This document shows, piece after piece, positions 12,142 to 60,400 of a DNA stretch of 60,400 bases. Both the position numbers and the translations under genes were made by a program. A model generated the notes under the pieces. It did no database searches, was not told where the DNA came from, and saw nothing but the letters and a program-made list of their open reading frames with translations. This stretch comes from Ptychomitrium polyphyllum (lineage: Eukaryota): positions 23,126,001 through 23,186,400 of the forward strand of contig OZ316775.1 of the NCBI GenBank assembly GCA_973851085.1. Direction: 5' to 3'. Position 1 is the first letter of the stretch. Every line of letters begins with the position of its first letter.

Positions 12142-12789
12142 TGTCACGGACATAGATCATGCAATATAGTCCTTAGAACATTCTAGAACCTTCTAATATA
12201 CTGTAATAGCTTCTTAGAATACCTTTAAATGTCTCCATAGCCTTTCTATGTTCTTAGGAAGCTTCCAAAGAAAGTTCTTTTACCTTAGGAAACTTCCTAG
12301 GAAGGTTCTATCATCTTAGGTAACTTCTTAGGAAACTTTGTAGGAAGTTTCCATCACCTTAGGAAACTTCCTAGGAGACGGTTCCATTATCTTAGGAAAC
12401 TTTCTAGGAAGGTTTTATTTCTTTAGGAATCTTCTTAAAAAGGTTCTGCTATCTGAAGAAATTTCCAAGGAAGGTTCCAATTCCTTGGATGCTTCTTTGG
12501 AAGGTTTTAACGTCTTAGGAAACTTCTTGGGAAGGTTCTCTAGACTACCAAAACATTTTTAAACCTTATAGGAAGCTTCTTTAGAAGTATTCTAGGAGAT
12601 ACAAACGTCATAGTATAAATAGAAGGCAAGGCAAGGTATTCTTTAGTCTTGCCAACACATATTGTGGATCATCTTGAATTCTGCCTTGTTGTAGTCTTTG
12701 TATCAAGTTCTTGTTAATCATTAGCTCTTTGGGAAGCTAATTCTTGGGAAACACTTCGTTTCTGCTTTTTGTTTCTTGTGTCCTCAACA
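12142..12789 (+). repeat. 3' LTR of gypsy element 1
   Basis: Begins TGTCACGGACATAG like the 5' LTR and ends in CA followed by the TSD. Confidence 0.93.
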
Positions 12790-16125: not shown

Positions 16126-16271
16126 TGTAAATAGGTTCTTAATTCTAGTCCTCGTTTAATGAATTAAGTACTTATCATTTGCAATCTTAAAAGCTAGCTG
16201 TAAATAGGTTCTTAATTCTAGTCCTCGTTTAATGAATTAAGTACTTATCATTTGCAATCTTAAAAGCTAGC
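16126..16271. repeat. Perfect 73-bp tandem duplication
   Basis: TGTAAATAGG...AAGCTAGC occurs at 16126 and 16199. Confidence 0.9.
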
Positions 16272-20570: not shown

Positions 20571-20695
20571 TGGAGCTCAACTTTTAACCTTTTTCTGGAG
20601 CTCAACTTTTAACCTTTTTCTGGAGCTCAACTTTTAACCTTTTTCTGGAGCTCAACTTTTAACCTTTTTCTGGAGCTCAACTTTTAACCTTTTTC
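20571..20695. repeat. 25-bp minisatellite, 5 copies
   Basis: TGGAGCTCAACTTTTAACCTTTTTC repeated five times. Confidence 0.9.
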
Positions 20696-28958: not shown

Positions 28959-31085
28959 TCACTTAATAGATTCAAGTCATTTAAAATAAATACATATAAT
29001 TAAAAAAATCCATTTGCTTAATACATTTTTTACTCATTTTAATATACCATATAAACATTCAATGAACTAAACATTACTTCTTTATAATCCATTTTATAAA
29101 ATTTTAAAGATTTTTTATTATTCCAAATTATAAATTTATATTTATATATCAGCTTTCTTTAATTTAAACTTAGAACTTTCTTTCCTTGTACGCATAGGTT
29201 TGTGGATATTCTGCAAGCATAATAATACATATTTGATTTTTAATTATCTTTGTTTAAATATTTATATAATTTCAACATATTTTACAAATTAATCTATTAA
29301 AAAAATAATTTTGGAATCAATAATAATAAATACATTATTTTTTAATAGTATTTTTTGTTAATCAAACAAATTAATGGTGTAAATATTTACTAAACGACAT
29401 TTGATTAATTTTAGATATATAAAAAAAATCAAAATTTATATGGGTCTGTAAGTTATTGTGGCATAAATTATAAATTCTAATGCAAAAGCAATGATGATGC
29501 AAGTTATTCATTAGGAATTTTTAGATAATAATTCATAATTTAAGATAATATAATATAATTGAAGAATAAAATTAATTAAAAAAAATATTATAAAAACTAA
29601 GATACCTGCTTATTAGGTCCTTTTGTTGAACTGGTGCATTACAAAGTAACCAAAAAAACATATTAGGCTCTTTAAATTGATTAAATTATACAAAATATGA
29701 CAAATTATAACATTAAAACATAATCAAATTTAATTTAGAAAATTATGGCTTTAAATTCTTTATTATTAGATCTTTAGCTATCAAATCAATCTTAAACTTG
29801 TCAAATGATGTTTAAAAAATCATAATTGATGAATTTAATAAGAATCTTTCAAATTTTCTTTAATTCTAATAAAAAATTTATAATATTGATAATAAAATTC
29901 TAAAATTAAAATATATTGTAATCATGACTAAAATAATTGGTAAAAGTTGATATACTAAAGAAAGTATTAAATTTAATTATATTGAGTTTTTTGAATTACA
30001 AAGGTTTAACGTTGAACATTTTATCTTGTTATTAATTAGAAGATTGAAGTTAATTAGCACATTTGTGAATCAAATTAACTACATCGCTAAGTAATGGACA
30101 CATATAAGACTTTAGTACTTTAGAAGCTTATTTTGAAGTGCATATCACATAATGAAAATTTTAAAAATAATTATAATATATGTTCCATGATAAGATTGTA
30201 TTTCATTATGTAGCAAAAAAAATATGATGGATTTAATAATCCATATTTTATAATCATGTAGTATATTTGTTGTAAGAAATTTAGATCAAATTCAAAAATT
30301 GTGAGGCCTTATTCATTTATAGAAATATTTGTTTTAACATCAAAATATGATTTTAACTTTTAGTTCTTTGGCACTATTAAATTCAAATTCTATTATTGAT
30401 ATCTTTTATTAAAATAAGTTTCAATTGAGATTTTATTTTAACATTGCTTCAAACTTTCATCACCATAAAAAATTATTATTTATTTTAATGCTTTAAAAAA
30501 TAGAATAGAATTTTCAAGAATGTCCAAACTTTAGAAAGCTAATGTGCTTTGAGATTAATTCTTGTTTCAAAATGCTCTCTAAATCTTCACAACACTTTGA
30601 AATAATGTAAGTTATTTTCAACAAAATATGAAATAAATTTAAGATTCAACTAGTTTTTTTTAATTGAAATTAGACATTGTTTGATAGAAAAAAAATTCTT
30701 TACAAATTTTATAATTTAAAGTTACAAAAATTTGTAAAACTCTTAGGATCTTTAGGAATTAATCAACTAAATTTGAAATTACCAAAATAGTAAAAATTAT
30801 ATATTAAATTTAATAATTTTTAAAAAGATCATAATTATGGAAGCCAATTATTGAGCATTTCATTTTAAATCCAGAATACAAATAGTTTTTACTTATTTTT
30901 TATAAACCTCCTATAAATTTTGGATCATTTAATAAATTTATAGATTCACAAATTTATTATATACATATTATTCTATAGTAATACTTCTAAAACTATTCTT
31001 GCATTTATTACTTAATTACTGGCAATGATTACATAGGCAACTTATTTTTTCTAAAAACAATCATTGTAATTTTAAAGTAGTGGTT

Positions 31086-42977: not shown

Positions 42978-44090
42978 TGTTACTACAAGGAATGAATTCC
43001 ATGGCCTCCTTAAAGACCTTAGAATTTCCAATTTGTGTAAAGGCCTTTAATTTAAAGGATGCATGATTTAGGCATTTTTTTGAGGAACCACCTATCACAA
43101 ATATATATATTAGAAGCATTAAGAAAGGTTCTTAGAAAATTTAAGAAGCTTCTAAGAAAGTTATTTCGGCTTAGGAAGCTTCCAAAGAAATTACATTGGT
43201 TCAAAAAGTTTCCAAGGAAGTTACTTTGGCTTAAGAAGTCTCCATGGAAGTTACTTTGGCTTAAGAAGCTTTTAAGGAAGCAATTCAAGGTTGCTTGAGT
43301 ATGATGTAATGCAATAGAAGCTTCCTAAGAAGCTTCTAAGGCTTGTAGTTTTAGATTATATAAGAAATCAAGGCTATAGGAATCTCTAGTCTTAACAATG
43401 CATCTCTTGTGATCTAGCTTAGATTTTTTGACCTTGTCTATGTACCTTGTTATAACTCTTTACTTCTATTATACTTGCACATATCTTGTTTTACATCCTG
43501 GAATCTTGAAGCCTTATCTTGTAGTTACTCTATTTGTAACAGTTTCTCAAAACTGTCATACAACAATACCAAAGCTTGGTCCTTTTTGATAGAGAACAGA
43601 TCACCCCTCTTCTTGAAAGCACTATAGCACTCTAGAAGTTGCGGATTACCCTCCTCTAGGCTGATATTGCCTCTTGAATTTTCTTTGGTTTTTTGTATAT
43701 TTAGTAATTTTTATCTGTTTCCATTTCATTTTTATGCCAAGAGGTAAAGATGTTAATACTGATTCAAAAGAAGCTAAGTTAAATTCCATTATTAATGCCT
43801 TTGAAGCATTGAGGATCAACATCGAGACTTTATCTAAGCAAAACAAAGAATTACACTTGACCATATATAATGGTCAAGGAGCAGAAGCACCGCAATTGTT
43901 ATTCCAAGTTAACTTATGTGCTTCATCATCTAGACTTGATTTTGTAGAAGATAGACAAGTTCAAGCCGAGAATTCAATGTCAACAGCCAAAGAATCAAGA
44001 ATCAGTGTTTTGAAGAAATTTGACAATATACATTCAAAATTTCAAGGCTTTATAAACCAAGTTCAATTTATTACTTTTATTTCAATCTTG
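42978..44090 (+). mobile_element. Truncated gypsy element: one LTR (about 42978-43541) plus the start of gag
   Basis: TG...CA-bounded segment with 30-bp internal repeats and a TATA box like the other LTRs, followed by gag-like KESRISVLKKFDNIHSKFQGFINQV. Confidence 0.7.
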
Positions 44091-46547
44091 ACAGTACCCT
44101 ACAAATTCCTTACATTGTTGTAATGCTATTAATAATTTGATTTAAAATGTAGCAAATTTTTGTTATTTTGTAAATTTTAGTTTATTGTATTTAAAAGGGA
44201 ATTTTAGCACAAGAGAAATGAAGGTTGAATGAAAGGGATCATGGTAAAACCATGGTTTTATTTAGCTTGGAGGTGGAATTGCATCTTGTTTTAGTTTAAG
44301 GTGAGAGGGACCTTTTGATTGTAGTGCTTTTTTGCATGCTTTTCTTATTAGCAGTATTAAGTCACTCGCTACCATTCTACTTAATGAATTCAATAGGAAT
44401 CCAGCTCGGATTGATTTAACAGCTCAAACTTATCCAGTCAACTAAATTCTTGACTTAATGTTTGATTTTGTCTTGACAATCTCTTTATTCTTATTTTGTT
44501 TAACTCCAATTCTTTATTTGTTTTTATTTTAGTTCATTTTCTTATTTTGGATTTATAAAAGTTGGCTTTGTTTTTTTTTTGGAATTTGAATCTAAAAATT
44601 TCTTTCAAAAGAAAGAAAAGATTTACAATATTCTTTTTGATGATGTAGGAAGATAAGAAGCTAAAATAGGAGGATAAGAAGCTGATGTGGAAGTTTGACT
44701 TCCATTTTTTATTTTTATTTTATTGGCATCTTCAACTTAGTATATAAGGCCGTCCTTCTTTGGCCAATATCTAATAGCATACTTTTTAGTTTGAGTTGAA
44801 TTTTGTTTAATTTTTTTTCTTTGATTATAAGCTTTTCAAAATGCCATCACATGCTCCATTTGAAACTAATAAATAACCATGGCTCTAATTTGAATAAAAT
44901 TGATTCAATTGCCTTAAGTTTTAAGAGGAGCTGCTTTGAGTGCTTATAAGTTCTTATAGAAATGATTGTTTTTATGAAAAAATTTAAATGGTATCATCTT
45001 AATTACTTCAATACAAATAATGTAAAAATTTGAAAAACAAAAGGCTTATATGATGAGACATATGAGGTATTTGATGAATAATATACAACAGAGATTGAGT
45101 TGTACTTTTTAGGCTATAGGAGTTGAATGGACAAATTTATAAGGCTGATATTTTGGAAAATATTATTAATAAGATAAAAAAAATGAATATAAAAGTTCAT
45201 ATCTAAATTCACAATAAAAAAAGAGTTATGAGGTGTTCAAGAAGAAGGGGTCTACAAGTTACGGCAGTGGTTTCTCAATTATGATCTGAATTCTTCAACT
45301 TGGATATATTTGTACCCTAAATTTGTTGTAACCTTCAAAAGCTTATAAAATATGCTTCAATGACTCTGTGAGCTGTAGAATCAGTTCATTATAGATTTTT
45401 TTTTTAAATCATGATAAAATTTAACATTGTAGAAGAGATTAGGTCTAATTAGGGTAAAAGAAGTTGAATTATAGTTGTTATTAAAAGAAGTATAAGACAA
45501 GTGGGCAGATGGTCATGGTCCATGACACTTAAGGCCAATGCAAGAATGGAATTATAGAAAGAAAGATGAAATATACAACTTGAATATATTTTTTGCAGAT
45601 TTTAGAGCAGCAACTAAATTTAGAATGATAGTCAAAATTTATAACTGCTGCTAATTTTAGATTTATAGCTATATTTAGCAATTTTAGAGTTAAGAAAAAT
45701 TATTGTTACAATTTGATTAGGAAATTCAAGAATTAGAGGAAGGTATTTAAAGAGTAGTTAGAGTAGTTTAAAGGGGGCTTGGAGGAGCAAGATTTAAAGA
45801 ATTGGAAGTACAAAGAATTGAATTAGTAATATAAAAAGAAAAAGAAATTTCTTAGAAGAAAATCTTAGAAGAAGAGTTTTTGAGAGAATGAGAGAATAGC
45901 AAATAAGTTTAATAGAAGTAGAAAAGAAATAAGTAAGAATTAAGGTTGATGTAGTAGTTTTAGGAAGGAATAGGTGGAGTAAGAGTTAGTAAGTATTTAT
46001 AAGAGTGTAGAAGAGGAGAACAGCTCTAATTTAGTTAGAATTTTGTAGTTTTGTTTTCCATTCTTTCCTTGCAAGCTTGGGGAGAAACGGTACCATGCCA
46101 GCTGGAATGCAAGGCCAACCAGGCTGAGATCTCCGAAGGCGGAACCAGTGGAGTAAAGATTGGTTATGTGAAGATCCATCGCAACTTGTGGAGCTGGAGT
46201 GAAATAGAAAGCAGAAAATGATGGAAGAATCAGCAGCCCTACACTAAATCCACACTATACCAGAGGCAGAAATTGCTTCAAAACGCAAGATTCTCAACTG
46301 CGGAACTGGCAAAGCTGCAAGTACAAGCAAAAGTAATATAGTAGAATTCGGCCATGCGGAGGATCTATTGAGACTTGCGGAGTTGGAATAGAGAACAAAA
46401 AACGGCAAAGGATCCAGCAGTAAGAGAAGTTAAAGGTTTGTTGTAATCTAGTTAGCACAACTTAAGAAACAACAGCCCAAAGAAAAACAACTAGGCCTTG
46501 CTGTCATTTGATTATCACAAAAGAGTAGTCACAAAGCTCACTAAAAG

Positions 46548-46635
46548 TTTAGGGTTTAGGGTTTTAGGATTTAGGGTTTAGGGTTTAGGGTTTAGGGTTT
46601 AGGGTTTAGGGTTTAGGGTTTAGGGTTTAGGGTTA
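46548..46635 (+). repeat. Telomeric tract 1, (TTTAGGG) about 12 units
   Basis: Arabidopsis-type repeat with one TTTTAGGA variant; G-rich strand points towards the window end. Confidence 0.98.
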
Positions 46636-49600
46636 CAAGAGCGTCCTAGAGGTTTTAGGTGTGGCTGGATTCTAAGGTTCTGCGCGACATCTGCACACCA
46701 CGGGATTCGCAATGCCACAAGGATTCCAAAAACCCCAAGCTTTTTTGAAAATTTCAGGTTCTGCAAGAATTAGGGTTTAGGGTTTCGGGCGAGGAATTAC
46801 CCTCGTTCTGACCCTAAATCGGCCCGGGTTCACACACATTCCAAGCACAAGGTTCGAAATTGCAAGTCACCTGTGTAAAGCAAGATCAGATTGACAAGAC
46901 CGTCTACAAATTGAACCCAACTGAGGAGAGCAAAATCAGTTTCACAAGACCGTCCACAAATTGAACCCAACTGAGGAGAGCAAAATCAGTTTCACAAGAC
47001 CGTCCACAAATTGAACCCAACTGAGGAGAGCAAAATCAGTTTCACAAGACCACTGCGGCTATGTCTCAGTCACCCCTGCATAGAGCACAGCACTGCTCCA
47101 CCCGAATGCCACCGGCTTACTGCACTGTCTGGGACCAGGGGCCAGTATCATAGAACGGCCCCATTGTCCACATTAAGCATTGGGCCCGGCGAGTATTCAA
47201 GTAGGGGAGAAATGTGGACCAGAACGGAACCGGCCGTCCTCCAGTGGCGTGAAGACCAGGTCCAAGACGACAGAAATAAAGGGTTCACGGACACCAGCGA
47301 AGAAGCCATAGTTTCTTGTGAAACGGGGACAGAATGCGAGCAATATCCAGGTTGGCCAGTAGTATCTACAGCCCTCATCCCAGGTTCCATCATAGTGCGC
47401 ATGGGCAACCAATTTAGCAAGAATTGAGTTGGAAGAACAAATCTAGAATTTAAACGATCCCAATGGGAAAAGAGCGGTGAGATGGTGAACCTGGGCATTT
47501 TTTCCCGTGAAAGCCGGCCCGTCTTCGTCGCGAAAAGGTCCCAGCTCACGCTCTTCGCGTAATCCCGTCATCGACTGCGTCAATTACGGAATATTTTAGC
47601 GGAGCAGACTCACAGTTGTATCCGTCCTCAGTACTTCGTGCACGCCACCGAGCAGGTCGGAGACACAGGAACCGGGAGAGAATGAGTTCAAAATAAAAAA
47701 TCGTCCAATAACCTGGTCCCCGAGCGAGTGACGCAACTGTCCGCACTTCTGGAATTGGATCAACGAGAACCTAGTTACAACAGAATTACAAAACCAATGA
47801 GCGTCCTGTCGAATGAGCGACCATGAGAACTGGAGAAACGACTCCGTATACAACCATACTAACCCCAACATTGGTGTCGGGTGTCACGTACCTTCTTCCC
47901 TTCGAGACGACGCAGACCAGGATTCGGAAGCATGTCCTCATGCTGCCAAGAGATGAGGGGCGAGGGGGGGTGGGCAAGAAACCGTAGAGGGGACGGAGGA
48001 CGGGACATCGCCAGACCGTAAACCCGGTGCCGCTGCTGGACAGCGGACTGGAATCTCGAGAGCGCAACCCGCAGAAACGTGATACCCCTGGCCTTGTGCA
48101 CACACAGCCCCGGCGGTGCAGAAACGAAGCAGGAGTAAGGTAGTACCACCACCGGTTGCGTCGAAGTCGAGCGCCCCAACCAGGCAGGGCCGGACACAGA
48201 GGTTCACGCAAGCGGGCAGGCAGGCGAAGCGGATAGGCAGGCGAAGGAGGCGAGGGGGCAAGTGCGGAGGGCGTGCGGCGCTCCCAACACCGCACGCTGG
48301 GAGGGGCTGTCACACCCACTCCGTGACGCAACTGCACCACAGTTTTCGGCCGAGCTCCAGTCCACGGGCACTTTTAGGCGGAGCTCCAGTTCACCGGCGG
48401 TGTAGTGGCAGTTCAAGGGCTTTTCCCCTCTTACGCTTGCCACTACGAGTGGTTTTCCTCTTTCTCTTCGCATTGCGAGCGCCCTTCCTCGCACCTTTCA
48501 TACTGCCGGTGGTCGCCCTTTCACTCTCCTACGCTCTGCTGTAAAAATCGGGAGGACCCTGAACCTGGTACGGTCGGAAGGGGTAGGGTCGGAATTGGGT
48601 CTGCAAGGACGGACCGGCTTCCGATACCGGGAGTACTGGTGGGGCCGAAATTGGTCCGGGCTCGCCCCGTACTGGCCGTGACCGTCTCGCACCTACCGGT
48701 TCGTCCAATACCGGAATTGGACCGGGCTGATTCCCCGTAAGAACGGGTGGGACCGCCTAAACCCAATGAATTGGGATTCCTGCGGCCTCGTACCCGTCTC
48801 TTCTCCGATCCCGGTCATCAAAGTGCAACGGGGCATTGCACCGTGGATTAGAGGCTCTCCACGCCAGTTAGGATCTCCGCATGTTGGAGCGTAATCATGG
48901 CGAGCTCTCGGATGGGGACATCCGCCGGCCCGGTGACCGATCCGGCAGGGCTGTGGCATCCCATCCGCGGCGCAAGTCCACCGCAGTTCCAGGCCGAGCT
49001 CCAGTTCACCGGCAGCCTCGGGCGGAGCTTCCGTTGACCGTCGGTGCAGTGGCAGTTCCATGGCATCTTTCTCCCGCTTTTCGCATCGCAAGTGACTGTG
49101 CTTCTGCTCCCCTACGCTCTTCTGTAAGGGTAGGCACCACCGTGTAAGGCACTTGTATATTGTCCTGGGCGGCTCATATCTGCGATGTATTTTCAATTTA
49201 TTTTGCATATATATATTTTCGGTTCATTTTCTCCCAATTCTGTGATGCTGGATCCCTCCGTTACGGCAATCTCCGTGCACATCTGATGGTATCGCATCGC
49301 TCCGTTGGTATCACTCCGTTGGTGTCGGTCGAAGTGTGACGGCTTTACGGTTCTGACTGTGATTTCCATGCTCCGATTTAGGGGGACCGGGGTCGTGCAA
49401 GCGCTCCAGGTGTGGGGGATTTTCGCGTTCTCACCGTGACCCCGCACGTTCCCTGCGTAGTTCTGGTTCACGTTCTGTGCACGTTCAATATATCATCTGC
49501 GAAGGACGGTACCTCGTGGGTCGTACCATCCTCATATGTAGGTCATCCGCATATGTTCCGACAAACAAAAGAATAAGGACGTGGAGCGCTTCGACGTATT

Positions 49601-50086
49601 TCGAATGCATGCCGACAGTATACGCCACATTATCGGAGGAGGTGTGGGACCTGCGATGGGGACCTCCTGATTCCGTGCGGATCGTGACCCACGTTCTTCG
49701 GCGTTCGGAGATCAGGATTCCAGGATGGACGCTGTTGCGAATGTCAGCGGGCGTCCCGGGCGTCAGCCCGGGTTGGGGACCGGATCCACCACCGCCGACC
49801 CACTCCATACAGATATCGACTCCGCGTGCTTCATGATGGATCTCCGTGATCTACACGGCTTGGTCGGAGAGATCGTGCGTCCAGCCAACCGCAGAATCCG
49901 CGTGAAGGATTCCGAATTCTACAGGGAGTGGTTGCACGTCATATCCGACCCGATCGTCGTGAAGGTGGATGCAGGGCTCTCGGATGCGGAGAGGGAGGAC
50001 CAGAAGCGTTCCATCTGCCAGGAATTGCGAAGGGGCCATGGGCTGGCGCTGACTCTCAGCAACCACGACATGGTCCTCGCCAGGAG
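46636..50086. mobile_element. Telomere-embedded GC-rich element, copy 1 (distally truncated)
   Basis: Near-identical to 50228-53878, flanked by telomeric tracts, and ends inside the 517-aa ORF. Confidence 0.85.
46894..47051. repeat. 50-bp tandem repeat, 3 units, in copy 1
   Basis: ACAAGACCGTCCACAAATTGAACCCAACTGAGGAGAGCAAAATCAGTTTC. Confidence 0.95.
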
Positions 50087-50105
50087 TTTAGGGTTTAGGG
50101 TTTAG
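49725..50105 (+). pseudogene. Truncated copy of the 517-aa ORF fused to telomeric repeats
   Basis: First 121 aa match 53517..; the tail LGFRV* is read from TTTAGGG. Confidence 0.9.
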
Positions 50106-50227
50106 GGTTTAGGGTTTTAGGGTTTTAGGGTTTTAGGGTTTTAGGGTTTTAGGGTTTAGGGTTTAGGGTTTAGGGTTTAGGGTTTAGGGTTTAGGGTTTA
50201 GGGTTTAGGGTTTAGGGTTTAGGGTTA
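50087..50227 (+). repeat. Telomeric tract 2, 19 units including five consecutive TTTTAGGG variants
   Basis: 4x TTTAGGG, 5x TTTTAGGG, 10x TTTAGGG, then TTA. Confidence 0.98.
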
Positions 50228-50485
50228 CAAGAGCGTCCTAGAGGTTTTAGGTATGGCTGGATTCTAAGGTTCTGCGCGACATCTGCACACCACGGGATTC
50301 GCAATGCCACAAGGATTCCAAAAACCCCAAGCTTTTTTGAAAATTTCAGGTTCTGCAAGAATTAGGGTTTAGGGTTTCGGGCGATGAATTACCCTCGTTC
50401 TGACCCTAAATCAGCCCGGGTTCACACACATTCCAAGCACAAGGTTCGAAAGTGCAACTCAACTGTGTAAAGCAAGATCAGATTG

Positions 50486-50843
50486 ACAAGACCGTCTACA
50501 AATTGAACCCAACTGAGGAGAGCAAAATCAGTTTCACAAGACCGTCCACAAATTGAACCCAACTGAGGAGAGCAAAATCAGTTTCACAAGACCGTCCACA
50601 AATTGAACCCAACTGAGGAGAGCAAAATCAGTTTCACAAGACCGTCCACAAATTGAACCCAACTGAGGAGAGCAAAATCAGTTTCACAAGACCGTCCACA
50701 AATTGAACCCAACTGAGGAGAGCAAAATCAGTTTCACAAGACCGTCCACAAATTGAACCCAACTGAGGAGAGCAAAATCAGTTTCACAAGACCGTCCACA
50801 AATTGAACCCAACTGAGGAGAGCAAAATCAGTTTCACAAGACC
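50486..50843. repeat. 50-bp tandem repeat, 7 units, in copy 2
   Basis: Same unit as 46894; the copy offset changes from 3592 to 3792 across the array. Confidence 0.95.
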
Positions 50844-53516
50844 ACTGCGGCTATGTCTCAGTCACCCCTGCATAGAGCACAGCACTGCTCCACCCGAATG
50901 CCACCGGCTTACTGCACTGTCTGGGACCAGGGGCCAGTATCATAGAACGGCCCCATTGTCCACATTAAGCATTGGGCCCGGCGAGTATTCAAGTAGGGGA
51001 GAAATGTGGACCAGAACGGAACCGGCCGTCCTCCAGTGGCGTGAAGACCAGGTCCAAGACGACAGAAATAAAGGGTTCACGGACACCAGCGAAGAAGCCA
51101 TAGTTTCTTGTGAAACGGGGACAGAATGCGAGCAATATCCAGGTTGGCCAGTAGTATCTACAGCCCTCATCCCAGGTTCCATCATAGTGCGCATGGGCAA
51201 CCAATTTAGCAAGAATTGAGTTGGAAGAACAAATCTAGAATTTAAACGATCCCAATGGGAAAAGAGCGGTGAGATGGTGAACCTGGGCATTTTTTCCCGT
51301 GAAAGCCGGCCCGTCTTCGTCGCGAAAAGGTTCCAGCTCACGCTCTTCGCGTAATCCCGTCATCGACTGCGTCAATTACGGAATATTTTAGCGGAGCAGA
51401 CTCACAGTTGTATCCGTCCTCAGTACTTCGTGCACGCCACCGAGCAGGTCGGAGACACAGGAACCGGGAGAGAATGAGTTCAAAATAAAAAATCGTCCAA
51501 TAACCTGGTCCCCGAGCGAGTGACGCAACTGTCCGCACTTCTGGAATTGGATCAACGAGAACCTAGTTACAACAGAATTACAAAACCAATGAGCGTCCTG
51601 TCGAATGAGCGACCATGAGAACTGGAGAAACGACTCCGTATACAACCATACTAACCCCAACATTGGTGTCGGGTGTCACGTACCTTCTTCCCTTCGAGAC
51701 GACGCAGACCAGGATTCGGAAGCATGTCCTCATGCTGCCAAGAGATGAGGGGCGAGGGGGGGTGGGCAAGAAACCGTAGAGGGGACGGAGGACGGGACAT
51801 CGCCAGACCGTAAACCCGGTGCCGCTGCTGGACAGCGGACTGGAATCTCGAGAGCGCAACCCGCAGAAACGTGATACCCCTGGCCTTGTGCACACACAGC
51901 CCCGGCGGTGCAGAAACGAAGCAGGAGTAAGGTAGTACCACCACCGGTTGCGTCGAAGTCGAGCGCCCCAACCAGGCAGGGCCGGACACAGAGGTTCACG
52001 CAAGCGGGCAGGCAGGCGAAGCGGATAGGCAGGCGAAGGAGGCGAGGGGGCAAGTGCGGAGGGCGTGCGGCGCTCCCAACACCGCACGCTGGGAGGGGCT
52101 GTCACACCCACTCCGTGACGCAACTGCACCACAGTTTTCGGCCGAGCTCCAGTCCACGGGCACTTTTAGGCGGAGCTCCAGTTCACCGGCGGTGTAGTGG
52201 CAGTTCAAGGGCTTTTCCCCTCTTACGCTTGCCACTACGAGTGGTTTTCCTCTTTCTCTTCGCATTGCGAGCGCCCTTCCTCGCACCTTTCATACTGCCG
52301 GTGGTCGCCCTTTCACTCTCCTACGCTCTGCTGTAAAAATCGGGAGGACCCTGAACCTGGTACGGTCGGAAGGGGTAGGGTCGGAATTGGGTCTGCAAGG
52401 ACGGACCGGCTTCCGATACCGGGAGTACTGGTGGGGCCGAAATTGGTCCGGGCTCGCCCCGTACTGGCCGTGACCGTCTCGCACCTACCGGTTCGTCCAA
52501 TACCGGAATTGGACCGGGCTGATTCCCCGTAAGAACGGGTGGGACCGCCTAAACCCAATGAATTGGGATTCCTGCGGCCTCGTACCCGTCTCTTCTCCGA
52601 TCCCGGTCATCAAAGTGCAACGGGGCATTGCACCGTGGATTAGAGGCTCTCCACGCCAGTTAGGATCTCCGCATGTTGGAGCGTAATCATGGCGAGCTCT
52701 CGGATGGGGACATCCGCCGGCCCGGTGACCGATCCGGCAGGGCTGTGGCATCCCATCCGCGGCGCAAGTCCACCGCAGTTCCAGGCCGAGCTCCAGTTCA
52801 CCGGCAGCCTCGGGCGGAGCTTCCGTTGACCGTCGGTGCAGTGGCAGTTCCATGGCATCTTTCTCCCGCTTTTCGCATCGCAAGTGACTGTGCTTCTGCT
52901 CCCCTACGCTCTTCTGTAAGGGTAGGCACCACCGTGTAAGGCACTTGTATATTGTCCTGGGCGGCTCATATCTGCGATGTATTTTCAATTTATTTTGCAT
53001 ATATATATTTTCGGTTCATTTTCTCCCAATTCTGTGATGCTGGATCCCTCCGTTACGGCAATCTCCGTGCACATCTGATGGTATCGCATCGCTCCGTTGG
53101 TATCACTCCGTTGGTGTCGGTCGAAGTGTGACGGCTTTACGGTTCTGACTGTGATTTCCATGCTCCGATTTAGGGGGACCGGGGTCGTGCAAGCGCTCCA
53201 GGTGTGGGGGATTTTCGCGTTCTCACCGTGACCCCGCACGTTCCCTGCGTAGTTCTGGTTCACGTTCTGTGCACGTTCAATATATCATCTGCGAAGGACG
53301 GTACCTCGTGGGTCGTACCATCCTCATATGTAGGTCATCCGCATATGTTCCGACAAACAAAAGAATAAGGACGTGGAGCGCTTCGACGTATTTCGAATGC
53401 ATGCCGACAGTATACGCCACATTATCGGAGGAGGTGTGGGACCTGCGATGGGGACCTCCTGATTCCGTGCGGATCGTGACCCACGTTCTTCGGCGTTCGG
53501 AGATCAGGATTCCAGG

Positions 53517-55070
53517 ATGGACGCTGTTGCGAATGTCAGCGGGCGTCCCGGGCGTCAGCCCGGGTTGGGGACCGGATCCACCACCGCCGACCCACTCCAT
53601 ACAGATATCGACTCCGCGTGCTTCATGATGGATCTCCGTGATCTACACGGCCTGGTCGGAGAGATCGTGCGTCCAGCCAACCGCAGAATCCGCGTGAAGG
53701 ATTCCGAATTCTACAGGGAGTGGTTGCACGTCATATCCGACCCGATCGTCGTGAAGGTGGATGCAGGGCTCTCGGATGCGGAGAGGGAGGACCAGAAGCG
53801 TTCCATCTGCCAGGAGTTGCGAAGGGGCCATGGGCTGGCGCTGACTCTCAGCAACCACGACATGGTCCTCGCCAGGAGCCAGGTGAACGTCCCCCTCCGA
53901 GCGATGGTGGAAGCGCTCCGGGCGTGCGGCCATGTGGAATGCCGGGTGGGGTTCTATGGCATGAAGTGGGCCTACCAGAAAGCCCAGCCTAGAATCGACC
54001 GCTTCGTGCAGTACCACACGGCCCTCCGCGGGAGAGTAGCTGTGGGGAGGAGGAACCAATTCGACATCGGGACGCTGCTGCCTGCAGCGACGATAGATGT
54101 CCTCTGCTTCGGCGAGGGTCAGTTCGGTCCCGTTCGAAGATTCAGGCAGGGCAAAATACACGAGATGTTCGACATTCCCAACCACGGCTCCCTGGAGTTC
54201 TACCTATCGGGCCACGAAGGGATCGGGAAGGTCAAAATCTACCACGAGCCGTGCCATGATGTCCTGTCCGCCATACCGAGGCACAGCCTGGACGACATGC
54301 CCAAGACGATCCGCACCATGCGCATCCGGGCGGAGCAGATGGAGAAACTATTACGAGCATGGGAAGGGTACGACGGTGCGACGTTGAGGGAACGCCTGCT
54401 GGGCACCAGGATCGAAGTGTCCATCGCACGTGCCCACACAGTCGCGGAGGCCCACCGTATGTGTTCGGACCTGGGGCTGCTGCAATTGCAGGGCATCGAG
54501 AGATTGCTGGGGGGGCCGTTCCGCACCCAAAGCATTTCCGCCCACGAAGTCCTGCACAACCTCAGATCGAAGGTCCGGATACTGCAAGGCCTGGTACTGG
54601 GCGGGAACGATTGCACGCCGAGCATCGCGATGCGGTCCGCCCTCACGAGGGCTCGCCAGGCAGTCGGATGGAGCGGCAAACACATGCGGCGTCACCTCAA
54701 GGACGCTCGGAATTGGGGGGGGGCTGTGGTGGATCAGCAGGTACGGAAAGAGCGTCCGTTGTTCCACTACGACGGTTGGGAGCTGGATGATGCGCACAAC
54801 CGGCCCGTGATCCAGGACTTCCTGGACAACGCGTCCTGGCAGAATCACAGTCGGGCGAGGGAGAGGGACCCCCATCCCACCATGCTGCAGAAGGTGAGAG
54901 GAGGCGGGTACTGGAAAATGGAAGGGGTGTACGTGGATCGGGTCACCGGCGCCCGCCACTTCATCAACAAATACGGCAGGAATTGGAGGAGACATGTGAA
55001 GGCCAAGCCAGAGGGTTTAGGGTCGGACAATGAAACATTCCGTTGTCCAGTGGACTCATTCGAGACGTAG
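53517..55070 (+). CDS. Intronless 517-aa protein of unknown family (possible nuclease or replication initiator)
   Basis: Long intact ORF with globular composition. The two substitutions noticed against copy 1 are both synonymous. Motifs DIDS, FYGMK, FDIG, KIYH and GTRIEV. Confidence 0.85.
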   Translation: MDAVANVSGRPGRQPGLGTGSTTADPLHTDIDSACFMMDLRDLHGLVGEIVRPANRRIRVKDSEFYREWLHVISDPIVVKVDAGLSDAEREDQKRSICQELRRGHGLALTLSNHDMVLARSQVNVPLRAMVEALRACGHVECRVGFYGMKWAYQKAQPRIDRFVQYHTALRGRVAVGRRNQFDIGTLLPAATIDVLCFGEGQFGPVRRFRQGKIHEMFDIPNHGSLEFYLSGHEGIGKVKIYHEPCHDVLSAIPRHSLDDMPKTIRTMRIRAEQMEKLLRAWEGYDGATLRERLLGTRIEVSIARAHTVAEAHRMCSDLGLLQLQGIERLLGGPFRTQSISAHEVLHNLRSKVRILQGLVLGGNDCTPSIAMRSALTRARQAVGWSGKHMRRHLKDARNWGGAVVDQQVRKERPLFHYDGWELDDAHNRPVIQDFLDNASWQNHSRARERDPHPTMLQKVRGGGYWKMEGVYVDRVTGARHFINKYGRNWRRHVKAKPEGLGSDNETFRCPVDSFET

Positions 55071-56432
55071 CGAAACCGGGCCGCATCTGGTCGTGCAGTG
55101 ATCACGTGCATCGGATACTGATGTCCAAATTGCCCCGGGATACTCGGCGTCTGTCGCCGGTGTCCACCTCCGACCACCGTCCGCGTGGTCCCTCAACATG
55201 CGGATCTCCAAAGTTCCGTCGTTGCAAGATGCCGACGTCTCGTCCAGTAGCTAACCCAGCGTAGGGGGGTGCGGGACCCGGAGATGCCGGTTGCTCCAAA
55301 AAGAACCCAGCGCTCGTCGGCTGGCATTACAGTCCGCCGCAGGTTCAGGCAGAGCGACAAGTTCACCTGCGTCTTTTACGCACAGCTTCAGTTCACCGGC
55401 AGTTCTAGGCAGAGCTTCAGTTCACAGCCGGTGCAGCGGCAGTGTCGACGGCCCTCTGTTCCCAACAATGATTCACCAGATGAACTCGGCTCTCTTCCAA
55501 GAGGGTCGAATGTCATTCCCCAGTCAGCCCAAGGAGGCCATAGAGGAGACAGCTGCTGACCGTCGAACGATGATATGTATCGAGGTCTTTCATGCAGTGC
55601 ATTGATGTCCCCAATAAGCTTCGGAGGTGCATCCGGGATTGGCCCCGGTGGAACCGGTATCTCGGTACCGGGTCCGAATTGGGTCGCTTGGACGGACCGG
55701 CTATCCAGTACTGGGGTACGGGTTCCGGAGCCGGTACTCGGTCATGCTCGCCCTGACCCGCAACTCCGAAATCGCAAGATACTGGGAGGACTCTGAGGAT
55801 TGGGAGGAAGTTGGAATGGAACGTAGGTAACCCTGTTTTGATTTCTAGTTTTCCATCCGTCTTCGGGCTCAGGGAATCAGGGGTTTAGGGTACTGGGCTT
55901 CGGGTTTAGGGTACTGGGTTTCTAGGGTTTAGGGTTTCGGAATGGGTCGCCAGGACGGACCGGCCATCCAGTATAGTACCGGGGTTTAGGGGTTGAGGAC
56001 CCGATACTGGTCGGCGCCCTCCTTGAGCCGGTCGTCGTATCCTCGCACTTATATGTCAAATGTGTGTTTGAATGTCCACCTTCCCGTCCCATTTTGTGTA
56101 TCAAGTACGTTCATGGAATATATATCAGATTTTGGATTCGCTTTCGAATTTTTCTTCAGGTGATGGTCCGATGTTCACACTGTCGGAGGTTGAGGGTGGT
56201 TTGGCTCCTTCTCATCCGGTTGTGGCGATTGAAGAATGCAGTTGAGTCAGACCTACATAATCCGCCGGTCTCATGTTCTGTGGATTATATGAACGCCACA
56301 GCTATGAGGCCTTCCGTGCAGTGACGAGAAACTTATACTCAACCATTCACTGTTTCGATTCATAACGCCAAAAACTCCGAGGCTATACAAAAACATCGGA
56401 ATACCTGAACGTGGGCTCGTGGGTTGACGGCA

Positions 56433-56645
56433 TAGTCCGCCGCAGGATTGGGCAGAGTGACCAATTCACCTTCAATTTGTAGGCACAGCTTCACTTCACC
56501 TGCAATTTTTAGGCACAGCTTCACTTCACCTGCAATTTTTAGGCACAGCTTCACTTCACCTGCAAATTTTAGGCACAGCTTCAGTTCACCGGTAGTTTCT
56601 AGGCAGAGCCTCAGTTCACAGCCGGTGCAGCGGCAGTTTGGACGG
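56433..56645. repeat. 30-bp tandem repeat (AGGCACAGCTTCACTTCACCTGCAATTTTT-type) of the intergenic module
   Basis: About 6 units here; diverged versions at 52133-52205, 52770-52850 and 55331-55455. Confidence 0.85.
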
Positions 56646-57297
56646 CTTTTTCTTCTCTTACCGTTCATATCGCAGAGTGATTTTCCTTTTACTTTCCTAC
56701 GCTCCTCCCTGAATAGAGTCACCACACTTGTAGGCGCTATTATATACCATGTGCTCAGTTTATATTGTGGATATGTTTTCAATTCATTTTTGGTGCGGCA
56801 CGTGCTGGTGGGTCCTCTGCCACTGCCGTCCGGGCACATAGTTGATGGTAATGTACCCCTCCATCCGCACGACCCATGGTTTTGATGGAAGTCTCGTGGC
56901 TTTCGCATTCATGGGGATTTCCGTGGTCCGATCGTAGTGTCCAGACCCGATCCTAGAGGTCTCCGACTTGTGCGAGTTTCCGCAGGTCCAGGGGATTTCG
57001 CGGTTCCGATCGTGACTGCAAGTTTTGAGTGTGTTCCCAATCGATGTCCTCTATGTATTCAGTATATTCCCTGTTCACCTCCCACGGACGGCATCTTCTC
57101 GGTCGTACCCATTCCTCCTGTAAGGTATCTGCTCATTCCGAAATAAACCCCCCCCCCCCCCATTACTGCGGCCTGTTTTGATTTTATTTTGATCCGGTCC
57201 GGCAGATCTTGGTGTGAACCACGCCGATCTCTTGACCCGTGACTTTGCAAGCATTCCCTGATCTCCGGGATCCGCTGCAAGGAGGTCGCAATTGCGG

Positions 57298-58480
57298 ATG
57301 GCGCCCATCGAGTGCAGGCAGGATTCCTGGCTCTGGTCGCGAGAGTTGTGGGTTTGGGAATTCATGTTAAAGTGCACGGATGGAGTTCTAGTGCTGGAGG
57401 AGTTCCGGAAGGAAGTGCCCTTTCCAGAAGGAGTTCCCCGACTGACTCAGATGTCCATAATCAGAGATGTCACCGGTCTACTGTCGACTCCTCCGCTCGA
57501 AAGGCACAGCATCAAGCAAGTCAAGCGACTCCTGCGAACCCTCACATATACGATGCTCGTCGGCAAGGATGAGGTGAAGCTGAAGGATACGGTGGTCGGG
57601 GGGCGCCTGAGACATGCCCTACAACCGGAGGACTTCCTCGATCCCATCCGGGAGCTGAAAAACGAGCTCAGAGGGTGGATTCCAGGCGCACAGGACAATC
57701 CCAGACAATACGAGGCCATCCGGGACAAGCTCTCCATACTGGCACAGAGAGCTTGGGCTTCGTTCGGATCCTTGGCGCTCGACGCACCCATACAAACCGC
57801 CGTTGTTGGGAGGCGCCCCCCGGAAGTCCAGCCGCCAGGAGCAGCTCCAGGAGATGGGCCTCCCCTTGCAGGAGCCAGCGGCATCTGCGAAGCTACCAGG
57901 TTGAATGACCTGGAGAACCATTTCAACAGAAGATGCTCCCAACTGGAGCAGCTCATCGCGGAGCAAGCCGACCAGCATCAGCAAGATATCCGAGCTCTAG
58001 GGGCTGCGGGGTTCGCAGTCGGCTCGAGGCAGACCTCCACCGACCAGGAACTGTCGGATCCAGGATCTCCCCCTCCGTTAGTGGGCCCACACCGTGCCGT
58101 GTTCGGCCCCCCCGTGTGCCTGCCTGAAGATGGGCCGAGCCGGGAGGCACACCAGCAGAACGGGAAGCGACTTCTCGAGGAGGACGACCTGCAGCCCAAA
58201 AGCGGCCGAGCGAAGCCTCGAACCCACCAGCGATGAATCCGCCGACCATTTCGTGGCGCCCCCAGCATCCGGTTCGACACAGGGAAGGCAGAGAAGGAAG
58301 TGGACGGACCGGGAGGTAGAGGTACTGAGGGCCGGCGTCAGAAAATACGGTATTGGAAAATGGAAGCAGATCTTGACCAGGTTTCAAGACGAACTACCCG
58401 GCCGCACCAATGTGGATATCAAGGATAAGTACATGGCTCTCATAGGCGTCAAGAAGAAGTACATTAAGAAGGAGGCTTAG
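57298..58480 (+). CDS. Protein with a helical N-terminal region, coiled coil and C-terminal telobox-type Myb domain, split across two frames
   Basis: ORF 57298-58236 overlaps ORF 58094-58480 in the +1 frame. The latter contains RRKWTDREVEVLRAGVRKYGIGKWKQILTRFQDELPGRTNVDIKDKY, matching TRF/TRB-type Myb domains. Likely 5'UTR intron at 57125-57205. Confidence 0.8.
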
Positions 58481-59254
58481 ATTGTAGAGAGTGTGTCGCC
58501 GGAGGGTTCACACCCGCTGTCGTGCTCCCCGTCGGAGACTCGTATGTGGCCACCGGCCCCATTTTGGAATAAGGAAGACGGCGTCCATTACTCGCCGTCT
58601 CTGTATGGGGCCCGAGCGACCAGGTTCGGGCACTCCCACGCGGAACACGACCGGTCTCGAAAGTCGGACGGGATCGGTATCGGTGCAGCCGGAATCGGTC
58701 GCCGCGGAACCCATGTCCCGGTACGGGGTCCGAATTGGGTAGCCAGGACGGAACAGCCACCCGGTACCGGGCTACGGTTCACGGGTTCAGGGTCTACGGC
58801 TCCGGGTTTAGGGTCCGGTATTTCGGTCCAGCGTTCGAATTGGGTCGCCTAGACGGACCAGTCATCCAGTACCGCGGTACGGGAGCCGGGTTCGGGGTAT
58901 CGGGTTCATGGTATCGGGTTCAGGGTATTGGGTTCGAAGTTTCGGTACTGGGTTCGAATCGGGTCGCCCGGACTGGCCAGCCATCCAGTACAGTGCCGGG
59001 GTAGGGGTTCGGGGCCCGATACTGGCCATTTTGTATGTGAAATACGTTCATGAAGTATACATGAGATTTTGGATTCGCTTCTAAATTTTCCTTCGGGTGA
59101 TGATCTGATGTCCGTACCGTCGACCAGGTTTTAGGGTGGTTCGGCTTCTTTGCACCCAACTGTGACGACATCAGAATGTTGTTGAATTAGACTCACATAA
59201 TCCGTCGGCCTCACTGGCTACTGTCGACATTACGTTCCAATGTATACTGTTATC

Positions 59255-59553
59255 TTTATTGTGTATACTCATGCTTCCGGAGAAGGTGTAAGTACGATAC
59301 TGTCACAATCGATGATGAAGGTCATGATCGACTGATGTATTATGCAAGTCGGCAATTGACATCAACCGAAGGGAGTGACACAGTTATGTAGAGAGAAGAA
59401 TCGGCAATTATTTTTGCCTCGGGGAAACCCCTTCATCATATATTCGGAAACAAGACCAGTATCAAGATAAATCACCAAGCACTAGGCTATCGTATCAATA
59501 AATGCAATATTGTAAGCCGAACTGCTCGGTGGATAATACTAGTGCATGTTTTC
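59255..59553 (+). pseudogene. Degenerate Ty3/gypsy-type RNase H fragment
   Basis: Manual translation: FIVYTHASGEGVSTILSQ / (frameshift) DDEGHDRLMYYASRQLTSTEGSDTVM*REESAIIFASGKPLHHIFGNKTSIKINHQALGYRINKCNIVSRTARWIIL. Confidence 0.8.
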
Positions 59554-59680
59554 AGGAGGAGTTATCTCTCTGACTGTGCTTAGAGTGCTGACATTACCTT
59601 CCATCGTCGTACTTGTTGCAACATAAGAAATCAGTGTTCAAGTGGACCAGGGGTTGTAGTAATAGAGTTCATCACTGTCA

Positions 59681-60055
59681 GTGAGGAAAACAAGGGGAAA
59701 CGAGATTCATTTCATCATCACTGGGCACTGGGATTCGGAACGCCGTGTGCCAAGGCGCCCACATTGTGCTCCAGGGTGGTTTGGGGTCATACGACAATGC
59801 AGTGAGAAAGTCAACATGTGTGACGGCACATGCGGCCATGCAGTGGGGGGGGGGGGGAGTCACTTGTGTGACCGGGTTCTCCCACGGTGTAGGAGCTCCG
59901 AACGGGAGTTCGGAATGGTATGGCTTTCGTTCACCGGGCTCAACATGCCCGAGTTGTGGACGGATGAAGTTAAGGCCCGTCATACTTCATCCTCTCGTGA
60001 CGGCCTCATGCGGTATCGGATGAAGACGCGCGAGGCCTTTTCCGAAAGAGCATGA
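59681..60055 (+). other. Possible small ORF or exon of a third element gene
   Basis: Open frame in GC-rich sequence spanning a G homopolymer; no recognisable motif. Confidence 0.25.
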
Positions 60056-60367
60056 AGAATGCAAGTTGATGGTCCATTTCGGGGACCGGGTCTGAGCGAC
60101 CACGAAAACATCAGAACTGTCGAGTGTAAGAACTGTCGAGTGACCAGGTTTAACTGGGTGCCGAAATTCGCCCACAACAGGCACGAAATTCCGAAATTCC
60201 GGGCGCATGCACGTAGGCGCATGCTGACGGACGTGACGGACATGTCGGGTAGAGGGGAAAGCCAGGCCGGATGACATGGCACTGGAGGCGCGGAGAACTG
60301 AGCACAGGACTGAAGATACCGCCATGTGTCAAACCCGGATTGGAACGCCGCAGACGACACCCGCATC

Positions 60368-60400
60368 TAGGATTTAGGGTTTTAGGGTTTAGGGTTAGGG
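60368..60400 (+). repeat. Telomeric tract 3 running to the window end (probable chromosome terminus)
   Basis: TAGGA TTTAGGG TTTTAGGG TTTAGGG TTAGGG. Confidence 0.9.

What the first reader, a model, noticed from the sequence alone, without database searches (positions are those of the whole stretch)
46548..60400. Chain of a large telomere-resident element: telomere / copy / telomere / copy / telomere
Seen: two head-to-tail copies of one GC-rich element, separated and capped by short TTTAGGG tracts. They share an identical proximal end and have different distal ends (3.45 vs 10.1 kb). Known: constant proximal ends with variable telomere-capped distal ends typify terminally added elements such as Drosophila HeT-A/TART, endonuclease-deficient Penelope-like Athena/Terminons and Magnaporthe MoTeR. 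Inference: this is a telomere-specific mobile element added serially to the end and re-capped by telomerase. Unlike HeT-A/TART and Terminons, its intact genes point towards the telomere and no RT is visible, so it may be a new class or a non-autonomous or truncated member.
Basis: partly seen in the sequence, partly recalled or inferred. Interest (0 to 1): 0.95.

Follow-up and report, generated by a model that had tools for sequence, protein, structure and literature searches.

The report
Moss telomere element with rolling-circle nickase
Copies of a mobile DNA element sit in a chain at a plant (likely moss) chromosome end, separated by telomere repeats; its one conserved gene is predicted to encode a bacterial-plasmid-type DNA-nicking enzyme that likely pastes DNA copies onto telomeres, which would be a new kind of eukaryotic transposon.

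Summary
The chain is real: tract (85 bp) / copy 1 (3,454 bp, cut inside ORF-A) / tract (138 bp) / copy 2 (10,148 bp) / tract. It belongs to a conserved family. ORF-A relatives are the first gene models on Ceratodon chromosomes. In metagenome contigs of a distant plant they lie in the same telomere/copy chains, behind the same 14-bp start motif (TTACAWGRGYGTYC). No reverse transcriptase, helicase or hammerhead ribozyme was found, including in a 3.2-kb telomere-to-telomere unit of the relative. A confident ORF-A model (pLDDT 89) has Rep_trans rolling-circle initiators as top hit in both PDB searches. Scores are moderate (Z 6.2-6.9; Foldseek E 6e-3), and sequence profiles show no match. The Rep_trans catalytic set is conserved: D32, D183, Y242 (64/65), R298-x-E300. 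A second gene ends in a TRF-type telomere-binding Myb domain. Best reading: a DNA element that nicks at its fixed start and transfers one strand onto G-rich telomere DNA, with telomerase capping the variable far end. Nicking and transposition are untested. The main rivals are spread by recombination and a longer unseen retroelement.

The parts
46548..46632 (+). First (innermost) TTTAGGG tract, 12 units with one TTTTAGGA variant, joined directly to AT-rich host DNA ending ...AAAAG
46633..50086 (+). Copy 1: proximal 3,454 bp of the element, cut inside ORF-A
46633..46646 (+). Conserved proximal terminal motif TTACAAGAGCGTCC; likely nick site or origin (inferred)
46879..47051 (+). 50-bp subterminal tandem repeat, 3.5 units
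49725..50086 (+). 5' part (about 120 codons) of ORF-A, running into the telomere tract
50087..50224 (+). Second TTTAGGG tract, 19 units of which 5 are TTTTAGGG
50225..60372 (+). Copy 2, 10,148 bp; may itself be truncated
50225..50238 (+). Conserved proximal terminal motif, second copy
50456..50843 (+). 50-bp subterminal tandem repeat, 7.8 units
52740..52996 (+). Repeated CAGTTCAC-motif module about 520 bp before the ORF-A start; similar modules at 52096-52226, 55312-55452 and 56415-56790; possibly promoter-like (inferred)
53517..55070 (+). ORF-A, 517 aa: predicted TBP-like Rep_trans-type domain (about residues 27-335) with D32, D183, Y242, R298, E300, followed by a helical part and a small C-terminal domain
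55626..56273 (+). Flank with degenerate telomere-like repeats, about 75% like 58682-59213
56415..56790 (+). CAGTTCAC-motif module with a 30-bp tandem repeat, about 510 bp before the ORF-B start
57298..58236 (+). ORF-B, 5' frame (312 aa as read in the window); no homolog found
58082..58480 (+). Second frame carrying a TRF/telobox-type Myb domain (about 58292-58435). Contigs of 3 of 4 runs have one base fewer at 58198, which makes ORF-B and the Myb one gene of about 393 aa
58682..59213 (+). Flank after ORF-B with degenerate telomere-like repeats
60373..60400 (+). Terminal TTTAGGG tract at the window end

Best explanation
This is a telomere-resident multicopy DNA element of mosses whose conserved gene ORF-A is predicted to encode a Rep_trans-type (TBP-fold, non-HUH) tyrosine nicking enzyme that likely moves copies by single-strand, rolling-circle-like transfer onto G-rich telomere DNA, after which telomerase likely caps the variable far end. 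Steps: (1) shown: fixed start motif directly behind TTTAGGG, conserved between distant plants; (2) predicted: ORF-A fold and D/D/Y/E catalytic set; (3) inferred: ORF-A nicks the G-rich strand at the tract/TTACA boundary and stays bound to the 5' end through Y242; (4) inferred: host replication displaces that strand, and a telomeric 3'-OH (the natural overhang or a nick in a tract) attacks the phosphotyrosine and joins the element's 5' end to the chromosome; (5) inferred: copying stops, or the copy later breaks, at variable points and telomerase adds repeats at AG/AGG-like seeds; (6) inferred: in this lineage the Myb protein of ORF-B helps target telomere repeats. Recombination between ends probably also reshuffles the chains.
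For: Fold: model pLDDT 88.8 from 134 sequences. Rank 1 of 48,161 chains is RepSTK1 4cij (Z 6.2, rmsd 4.4, 188 aligned). Second look: Z 6.9, rmsd 4.0, 184 aligned, next rows 4.8, with TBP itself at Z 3.3-3.8. Foldseek ranks 1-2 are Rep_trans 4cwe and 4cwc (E 6.4e-3 and 1.3e-2, prob 0.93 and 0.96). Viral library rows include inovirus Reps. The Rep_trans idea was noted from motifs (note) before these results. Residues: Y242 64/65, D32 32/34, D183 51/60, R298 55/62, E300 59/62, K240 60/64, H247 59/64, in the order of Rep_trans motifs N', I, III, IV (PMC5714925). Both structural alignments start 23 residues apart, which puts D32 opposite RepSTK1 D9 if that strand has no gap. Archaeal Rep-Arvir was recognised on equally weak scores and also has K-x-Y (PMC13107129). 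Telomere link: Ceratodon homologs KC19_8G000100, 8G000200, M758_3G000300, M758_8G000500, VG001200; 10 of 32 metagenome loci carry TTTAGGG-TTACA junctions (15 junctions, about 12 distinct), 8 of 11 internal tracts are followed by TTACA, and 9 of 12 non-telomeric motif positions match the window while only 6 of the next 26 do. DNA rather than RNA route: L001 is a 3.2-kb telomere-to-telomere unit whose only ORF of 150 aa or more is the ORF-A relative; the gene cassette is inverted relative to the terminus in L001 versus L004; no RT in 50 of 67 ORFs scanned from those loci. dN/dS between L001 and L003 is 0.039/0.143. The Myb's best PDB matches are TRF1/TRF2/TBP1 types.
Against: The structural scores are in the range the tool calls middling (Z under 8), and no Foldseek PDB match reaches E 0.001. 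The first, shallower model gave no match. Profile-profile comparison with RepSTK1 alone and with a 7-sequence Rep_trans alignment gave nothing, and no Pfam or PHROG Rep family was hit by 22 members. The R of RxD and the K of YxKxxE are not kept. Active-site geometry could not be measured on the model. Viral early transcription factor subunits also appear among the fold hits, so a non-catalytic TBP-like protein is possible. No origin hairpin was found in the first 230 bases. Intact relatives L001 and L003 have the orientation expected of a retroelement. One high-depth contig runs 108 letters past 60366, so the element may be longer than seen. Both window copies share a base (49274/53066) that differs from the contigs of all 4 runs, which fits local duplication as well as repeated use of one donor. 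Degenerate copies also lie away from long tracts in long contigs (L009, L021, L022, L029-L032).
Confidence: 0.6

Rival explanations
1. A Y'-like subtelomeric repeat that spreads between chromosome ends only by host recombination or break-induced replication using the internal telomere tracts, with breaks healed by telomerase; ORF-A is a passenger or only makes or resolves circles.
For: Short internal tracts of unequal length; two 99.7% identical neighbours that share a base not seen in the contigs of 4 runs; MoTeR arrays expand in this way (PMC7367193 passages). Yeast Y' behaviour is recalled, from no call.
Against: Recombination alone would not conserve a 14-bp motif at the junction between plants whose other non-coding DNA does not align, nor a tyrosine/acidic catalytic set.
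Confidence: 0.2
2. The 3'-terminal part of a longer endonuclease-less Penelope/Terminon-like retroelement, or a non-autonomous element copied by an RT in trans; its RNA would be the minus strand ending in CCCTAAA, and ORF-A an accessory Rep.
For: Terminons form head-to-tail chains cut by telomeric repeats, were first seen only as 3' fragments and can carry Rep proteins (PMC6431247 passages). L001 and L003 genes point away from the telomere. A contig runs 108 letters past 60366.
Against: No RT in 10.1 kb or in the relatives' units. No hammerhead: 1 core-like hit without a stem in the window, 0 in 11 relative loci, 0 Rfam matches. L001, L003 and L009 all end in the same CTAGA-rich repeat, so about 3.2 kb looks like a whole unit. 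Window genes are antisense to the required RNA.
Confidence: 0.13
3. ORF-A is a non-catalytic TBP-like DNA-binding protein (for example of large-virus origin) in a subtelomeric gene family, and the chain is an amplified host repeat.
For: TBP structures align at Z 3.3-3.8; viral early transcription factor subunits are among the fold hits.
Against: Rep initiators score higher than TBP. The best-kept residue is the tyrosine at the catalytic-motif position. No relative in viral contigs.
Confidence: 0.05
4. Misassembly or a contaminant joined to the contig end.
For: The junction was not tested on reads; the window has a probable homopolymer error at 58198.
Against: The same architecture occurs in independent contigs of another plant; homologs are annotated on chromosome-scale moss records; none in prokaryote genomes or viral contigs; the two copies and the tracts differ from each other.
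Confidence: 0.02

Closest known systems
Rep_trans initiators (PF02486; pT181/pC221 RepD, pSTK1 Rep, inovirus Reps, MOBT relaxases) and archaeal Rep-Arvir
   Same: Predicted TBP-like sheet, tyrosine on a beta strand, D...D...R-x-E in the same order (PMC5714925, PMC4797284, PMC13107129).
   Different: No sequence-level match; about 35 extra residues between the tyrosine and R-x-E; RxD and YxK only partly kept; sits in a eukaryotic chromosome end, not a plasmid or virus. PMC13107129 describes the group in bacteria and archaea only (passages read).
Telomeric Helitrons of Paramecium (PMC13085455)
   Same: Rolling-circle-type elements confined to chromosome ends, flanked by telomere repeats of variable length, with satellites inside, ORF orientation varying between families and short derivatives.
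   Different: Helitrons use an HUH Rep-helicase of 9-10 kb, with the initiating end outermost and insertion proposed on the C-rich strand. Here there is a 517-aa non-HUH protein, no helicase, and the fixed end is innermost.
Endonuclease-less Penelope-like elements and Terminons (Athena, Coprina)
   Same: Head-to-tail chains at telomeres, fixed inner end, outer ends cut by telomere repeats (PMC6431247, PMC8557442).
   Different: No RT and no hammerhead found; window genes point outwards; a whole unit in the relative is 3.2 kb with one gene.
Magnaporthe MoTeR (PMC7367193); HeT-A/TART and TRAS/SART (recalled)
   Same: Arrays separated by short telomere tracts; truncated copies capped by new telomere.
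   Different: These are non-LTR retrotransposons with an RT or dependent on one; none was found here.
Replitrons and IS91 (HUH transposons; PMC10288648, PMC5714925)
   Same: Small Rep-only transposase without helicase (Replitrons, partly recalled); one precise end and one imprecise end; Replitrons occur in mosses.
   Different: They use the HUH fold; Replitrons have short terminal direct repeats, and the term 'telomer' does not occur in that paper.
Yeast Y' elements (recalled, no call)
   Same: Tandem subtelomeric copies separated by telomere tracts, gene pointing outwards.
   Different: Y' encodes a helicase and spreads by recombination; no helicase was found here.

Membership tests
Rep_trans superfamily | TBP-like catalytic fold | tested here: met
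   Top hit, with TBP hits below; scores moderate (Z 6.2-6.9, rmsd 4.0-4.4, 184-188 aligned)
Rep_trans superfamily | Catalytic tyrosine on a beta strand (motif III YxKxxE) | tested here: inconclusive
   Y242 64/65 on strand 236-243; the context is K-x-Y-x-E-x-x-H, without K at +2; K-x-Y as in Rep-Arvir
Rep_trans superfamily | Three acidic metal ligands (motif N' D, motif I D, motif IV E) | tested here: met
   D32 32/34, D183 51/60, E300 59/62 in the expected order, each on a strand; spatial clustering not measured
Rep_trans superfamily | Arginines of RxD and RxE | tested here: inconclusive
   R298 55/62 kept; the position two before D183 is variable
Rep_trans family PF02486 / Phage_CRI PF05144 (sequence level) | Profile match | tested here: not met
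   No such Pfam or PHROG hit for 22 members; hhalign probability under 1%. The Atlas listed a cluster with Phage_CRI on 16% of members at rank 10, a weak lead
Rep_trans superfamily | Site-specific nicking with a 5'-phosphotyrosine adduct | not testable with these tools
   Needs biochemistry
EN- Penelope-like / Terminon | PLE reverse transcriptase in the element | tested here: not met
   None in copy 2 or in the relatives' units; DNA beyond 60372 was not seen
EN- Penelope-like / Terminon | Hammerhead ribozyme next to the 3' telomeric repeats | tested here: not met
   divergent ribozymes could be missed
EN- Penelope-like / Terminon | Head-to-tail chains with a fixed inner end and telomere-cut outer ends | tested here: met
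Helitron | HUH Rep plus helicase | tested here: not met
   No helicase or Helitron domain in 106 frames; the fold hits are Rep_trans/TBP
Helitron | TC...hairpin-CTRR termini | tested here: inconclusive
   Starts TTACA; CTAG lies just before the last tract but there is no significant hairpin, and the true distal end is unknown
Telomeric non-LTR retrotransposons (MoTeR, TART, TRAS/SART) | RT with APE or restriction-like endonuclease | tested here: not met
TRF/telobox Myb | Myb repeat closest to telomere-binding proteins | tested here: met
   Pfam Myb E 7e-9; the nine best PDB sequences are TRF1/Terfa/TBP1-type telomere proteins; binding not tested

The most novel reading that the evidence does not exclude
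A new class of eukaryotic transposon: the first to use a Rep_trans/TBP-fold (non-HUH) tyrosine nickase, extending that enzyme group to eukaryotes. It would join its own DNA strand directly to the free 3' end of telomeres without cutting the target, carry a telomere-binding Myb in some lineages, and have capped bryophyte chromosomes, including those of Physcomitrium and Ceratodon, unnoticed.
Probability: 0.5. Interest if true: 0.95.

Novelty: categorically new. Interest (0 to 1): 0.87.

Why it matters
The rolling-circle transposons covered by the papers read (IS91, Helitrons, Replitrons) use HUH enzymes, and most telomere-specific elements are retroelements. A 2026 paper places Rep_trans-fold initiators in bacteria and archaea only (PMC13107129). 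A telomere-resident eukaryotic element built on that fold would add a transposon class and a possible RT-free route to extend chromosome ends alongside telomerase. It is directly testable: intact homologs are annotated in Physcomitrium patens and Ceratodon purpureus, both easy to edit. It could also account for the unexplained internal telomere-repeat bands reported in moss telomere blots (PMC10856949; inference).

Tried and rejected
No whole genome was held, so copy number, insertion sites and other chromosome ends could not be tabulated. No RNA holder was listed. Rfam: 0 matches. ORF-B 5' frame: no homolog at lengths 171-546, no usable Atlas hit, no tblastn hit for ORF-B or the Myb frame in the 32 relative loci. 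The Myb search among longer proteins gave 2 hits, P0176 and P0177, two-Myb proteins that look fungal and are probably not element genes. The Atlas top hits for ORF-A were RdRP clusters at a recognition score below the reliable range; the fold searches did not support them. ORF-A profile against PDB sequences: 0. First model: no fold match. No relatives in viral contigs or prokaryote genomes; these pattern scans reach close relatives only. Terminal hairpins: none better than shuffles in 7 stretches. The 50-bp repeat holds CTGAGGA but no matching GAAA, so it was rejected as a hammerhead. A weak RT_RNaseH hit (E 0.015, below cut-off) at 59392-59580 was treated as chance. A CTAG just before the last tract was considered as a Helitron end and left undecided. 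The C-terminal domain of ORF-A looks AP2-like by eye (recalled motif) but was not folded alone. Contig depth is not a copy number and is used only as a hint. The original Terminon paper was not held and the P. patens near-T2T paper (Bi 2024) was not read; no supplements were opened, so a repeat-library entry or supplementary note on this element may exist. Earlier findings of the scan: none.


Full report
Observation. The window ends in three TTTAGGG tracts (46548-46632, 50087-50224, 60373-60400) enclosing two head-to-tail copies of a GC-rich element of 3,454 and 10,148 bp. The copies differ by 9 substitutions and 4 units of a 50-bp repeat. Copy 1 stops inside ORF-A and passes straight into telomere repeats. 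All three tracts follow an AG or AGGA, as expected where telomerase starts on a short telomere-like seed (established knowledge, recalled). The host part is AT-rich and holds Ty3/gypsy remains. The host is likely a moss; this is inferred from the telomere type and from 60% protein identity to Physcomitrium patens.

Other data sets. Eleven of 15 listed runs, from 9 studies, hold part of the element. I laid 50850-60366 on 4 of them. All 4 cover it (30, 30, 25 and 25 of 30 bins). In run X1, which may be the window's source, summed depth falls in steps from about 4,600-4,900 at the inner end to about 1,800-1,900 at the outer end, while diverged copies show depth 49-80. This hints at tens of copies with a shared inner end and varied outer ends, but the tool warns that such depth is not a copy number. 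Three of 4 runs lack one base at 58198, so ORF-B and the Myb frame form one gene of about 393 aa in most copies. One deep contig of run X2 continues 108 letters past 60366, whereas the window has only 6 non-telomeric bases there, so copy 2 may also be truncated. The junction with host DNA was not tested on reads.

Genes. Of 106 frames scanned, only the Myb passed a Pfam cut-off. Its best solved relatives are TRF1, TRF2 and plant TBP1-type telomere proteins. ORF-A (517 aa) has no Pfam or PHROG family but has 8 close relatives and 432 clusters at E<=0.001 in a profile search. Named members are multicopy hypothetical proteins of P. patens (8 PHYPA locus tags listed) and Ceratodon purpureus. The Ceratodon tags KC19_8G000100, 8G000200, M758_3G000300, M758_8G000500 and VG001200 place them among the first gene models of a chromosome; this is inferred from the numbering, and I could not read those genomes. 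No relative was found in viral contigs or prokaryote genomes.

The same architecture in a distant plant. A metagenome scan gave 32 loci with ORF-A relatives at 35-55% identity, several of them redundant. Ten of the 32 carry TTTAGGG followed by TTACA (15 junctions, about 12 distinct), and 8 of 11 internal tracts of three or more repeats are followed by TTACA. The window's start matches their majority at 9 of 12 positions after the TT (rough p 7e-4) and at only 6 of the next 26. The derived pattern occurs exactly twice in the window, at the two copy starts, and never in 100 shuffles; the pattern was built from these sequences, so this shows specificity, not independent support. Apart from telomere-like repeats, one weak subterminal hit and short stretches inside ORF-A, the DNA does not align between the two plants. 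L001 is a 3.2-kb unit between two tracts whose only ORF of 150 aa or more is the ORF-A relative. L001, L003 and the internal relic L009 all end in the same CTAGA-rich repeat before telomere repeats, so that unit looks complete. Its gene points away from the chromosome end, while L004-L007 and the window point towards it; L001 and L004 share both parts, with the gene cassette inverted against the terminus. dN/dS between L001 and L003 is 0.039/0.143. A Pfam scan of 50 of 67 ORFs from these loci (17 mostly redundant ones left out) found no RT or helicase. Broken copies also lie in long contigs among host genes, so telomere residence is a strong preference or a starting point, not absolute.

What ORF-A is. 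From the alignment and a weak Atlas lead I noted a Rep_trans-like motif order before any positive fold result (note). A model from 9 sequences was mediocre and matched nothing. A model from 134 sequences reached pLDDT 88.8. It ranked the pSTK1 Rep first of 48,161 chains (Z 6.2, rmsd 4.4, 188 aligned) and at Z 6.9, rmsd 4.0 in the second look, with staphylococcal Reps at 4.7-4.8 and TBP at 3.3-3.8. Foldseek ranked two staphylococcal Reps first (E 6.4e-3 and 1.3e-2), and the viral library gave 2 unnamed hits below E 0.001 plus named inovirus Reps lower down. These scores are moderate; other rows (helical bundles) reach Z 5.0-5.5 but cover about 100 residues. The best-kept residue is Y242 (64/65), with D32, D183, R298 and E300 in the order of motifs N', I, III and IV (PMC5714925 section 10). 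The alignments start with an offset of 23, which pairs D32 with RepSTK1 D9 if that strand has no gap. Against this reading: no profile match, missing R and K positions, and no measured active-site geometry. The archaeal Rep-Arvir family was assigned on similar evidence (rmsd 4.47, no sequence match, K-x-Y) and its tyrosine proved essential (PMC13107129 passages).

Mechanism. Rep_trans enzymes nick one strand, hold its 5' end on a tyrosine, and can be released by a free 3'-OH (PMC5714925). The fixed end of this element is a 5' end on the G-rich strand, always joined to telomere repeats. I infer that ORF-A nicks at that junction and that the displaced strand is joined to a telomeric 3'-OH, either the natural overhang or a nick in a tract. 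Poor termination is known for rolling-circle transposases; it, or later breakage, would give the variable outer ends that telomerase then caps. This accounts for the conserved start motif, the polarity, the lack of RT and the freedom of gene orientation. It does not by itself explain the shortness of the internal tracts or the base shared by the two neighbours, so recombination probably acts as well. I give the whole model 0.6, the Rep_trans-type fold about 0.8, and a real telomere-resident family over 0.9.

Known systems. It works most like the telomeric Helitrons of Paramecium (PMC13085455; abstract, section 14 and part 1 of section 18 read) but has a different enzyme and the opposite polarity. 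It looks like Terminons and MoTeRs (PMC6431247, PMC8557442, PMC7367193; passages read) but fails their RT and hammerhead tests. Terminons can carry Rep genes and were first seen as fragments, which keeps that rival at about 0.13. Replitrons are HUH elements (PMC10288648, passages).

Novelty. Ten literature searches (listings only) showed no paper describing this element or a eukaryotic Rep_trans transposon. Passages read in three moss papers (PMC10856949, PMC11871058, PMC12616469) do not mention it. The library lacks most subscription papers, the Terminon paper was not held, the P. patens near-T2T paper was not read and no supplements were opened, so a prior mention cannot be excluded. Verdict: observation confirmed; probably a new class of telomere-resident DNA element; interest 0.87.

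Noticed in passing
window 6173-12796 (+) and 23152-28965 (-): Two diverged Ty3/gypsy LTR retrotransposon copies in opposite orientation, about 81% alike; the first keeps gag and a 643-aa pol frame.
   Followed up: partly
window 43119-46547: An LTR-type 30-bp repeat and a possible gag start lie 2-3 kb before the first tract, and no subtelomeric satellite is seen, so this end may be a healed break in retrotransposon-rich DNA (Pfam did not confirm the ORF).
   Followed up: partly
window 52740-56273 versus 56415-59213: ORF-A and ORF-B have similar upstream modules at about the same distance, and similar telomere-like flanks follow, as if one expression cassette was duplicated and given a new gene.
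   Followed up: partly
L001, L006, L007, L009, L019, L023, L026, L027 junctions: The sequence just before a telomere tract often ends in CAGG or CCCAGG(G). PMC11871058 reports unusual (CCCAGGG)n ends in Funaria; a link is untested.
   Followed up: partly
L002 1754-1946 and L007 1-5565: Piles of very short terminus fragments separated by a few telomere repeats (7 termini in L007), which suggests repeated abortive additions.
   Followed up: partly
P0169, P0171: Two distant ORF-A relatives (about 20% identity, unnamed) keep D, Y and R-x-E; P0169 adds a CxxC...CxxC motif. They may come from outside mosses.
   Followed up: partly
window 49274 and 53066: Both copies have C where the contigs of all 4 runs have G, pointing to a common recent donor or a local duplication.
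   Followed up: partly
window 16126-16271 and 20571-20697: Perfect tandem duplications (73 bp x 2; 25 bp x 5.1) in AT-rich host DNA.
   Followed up: no
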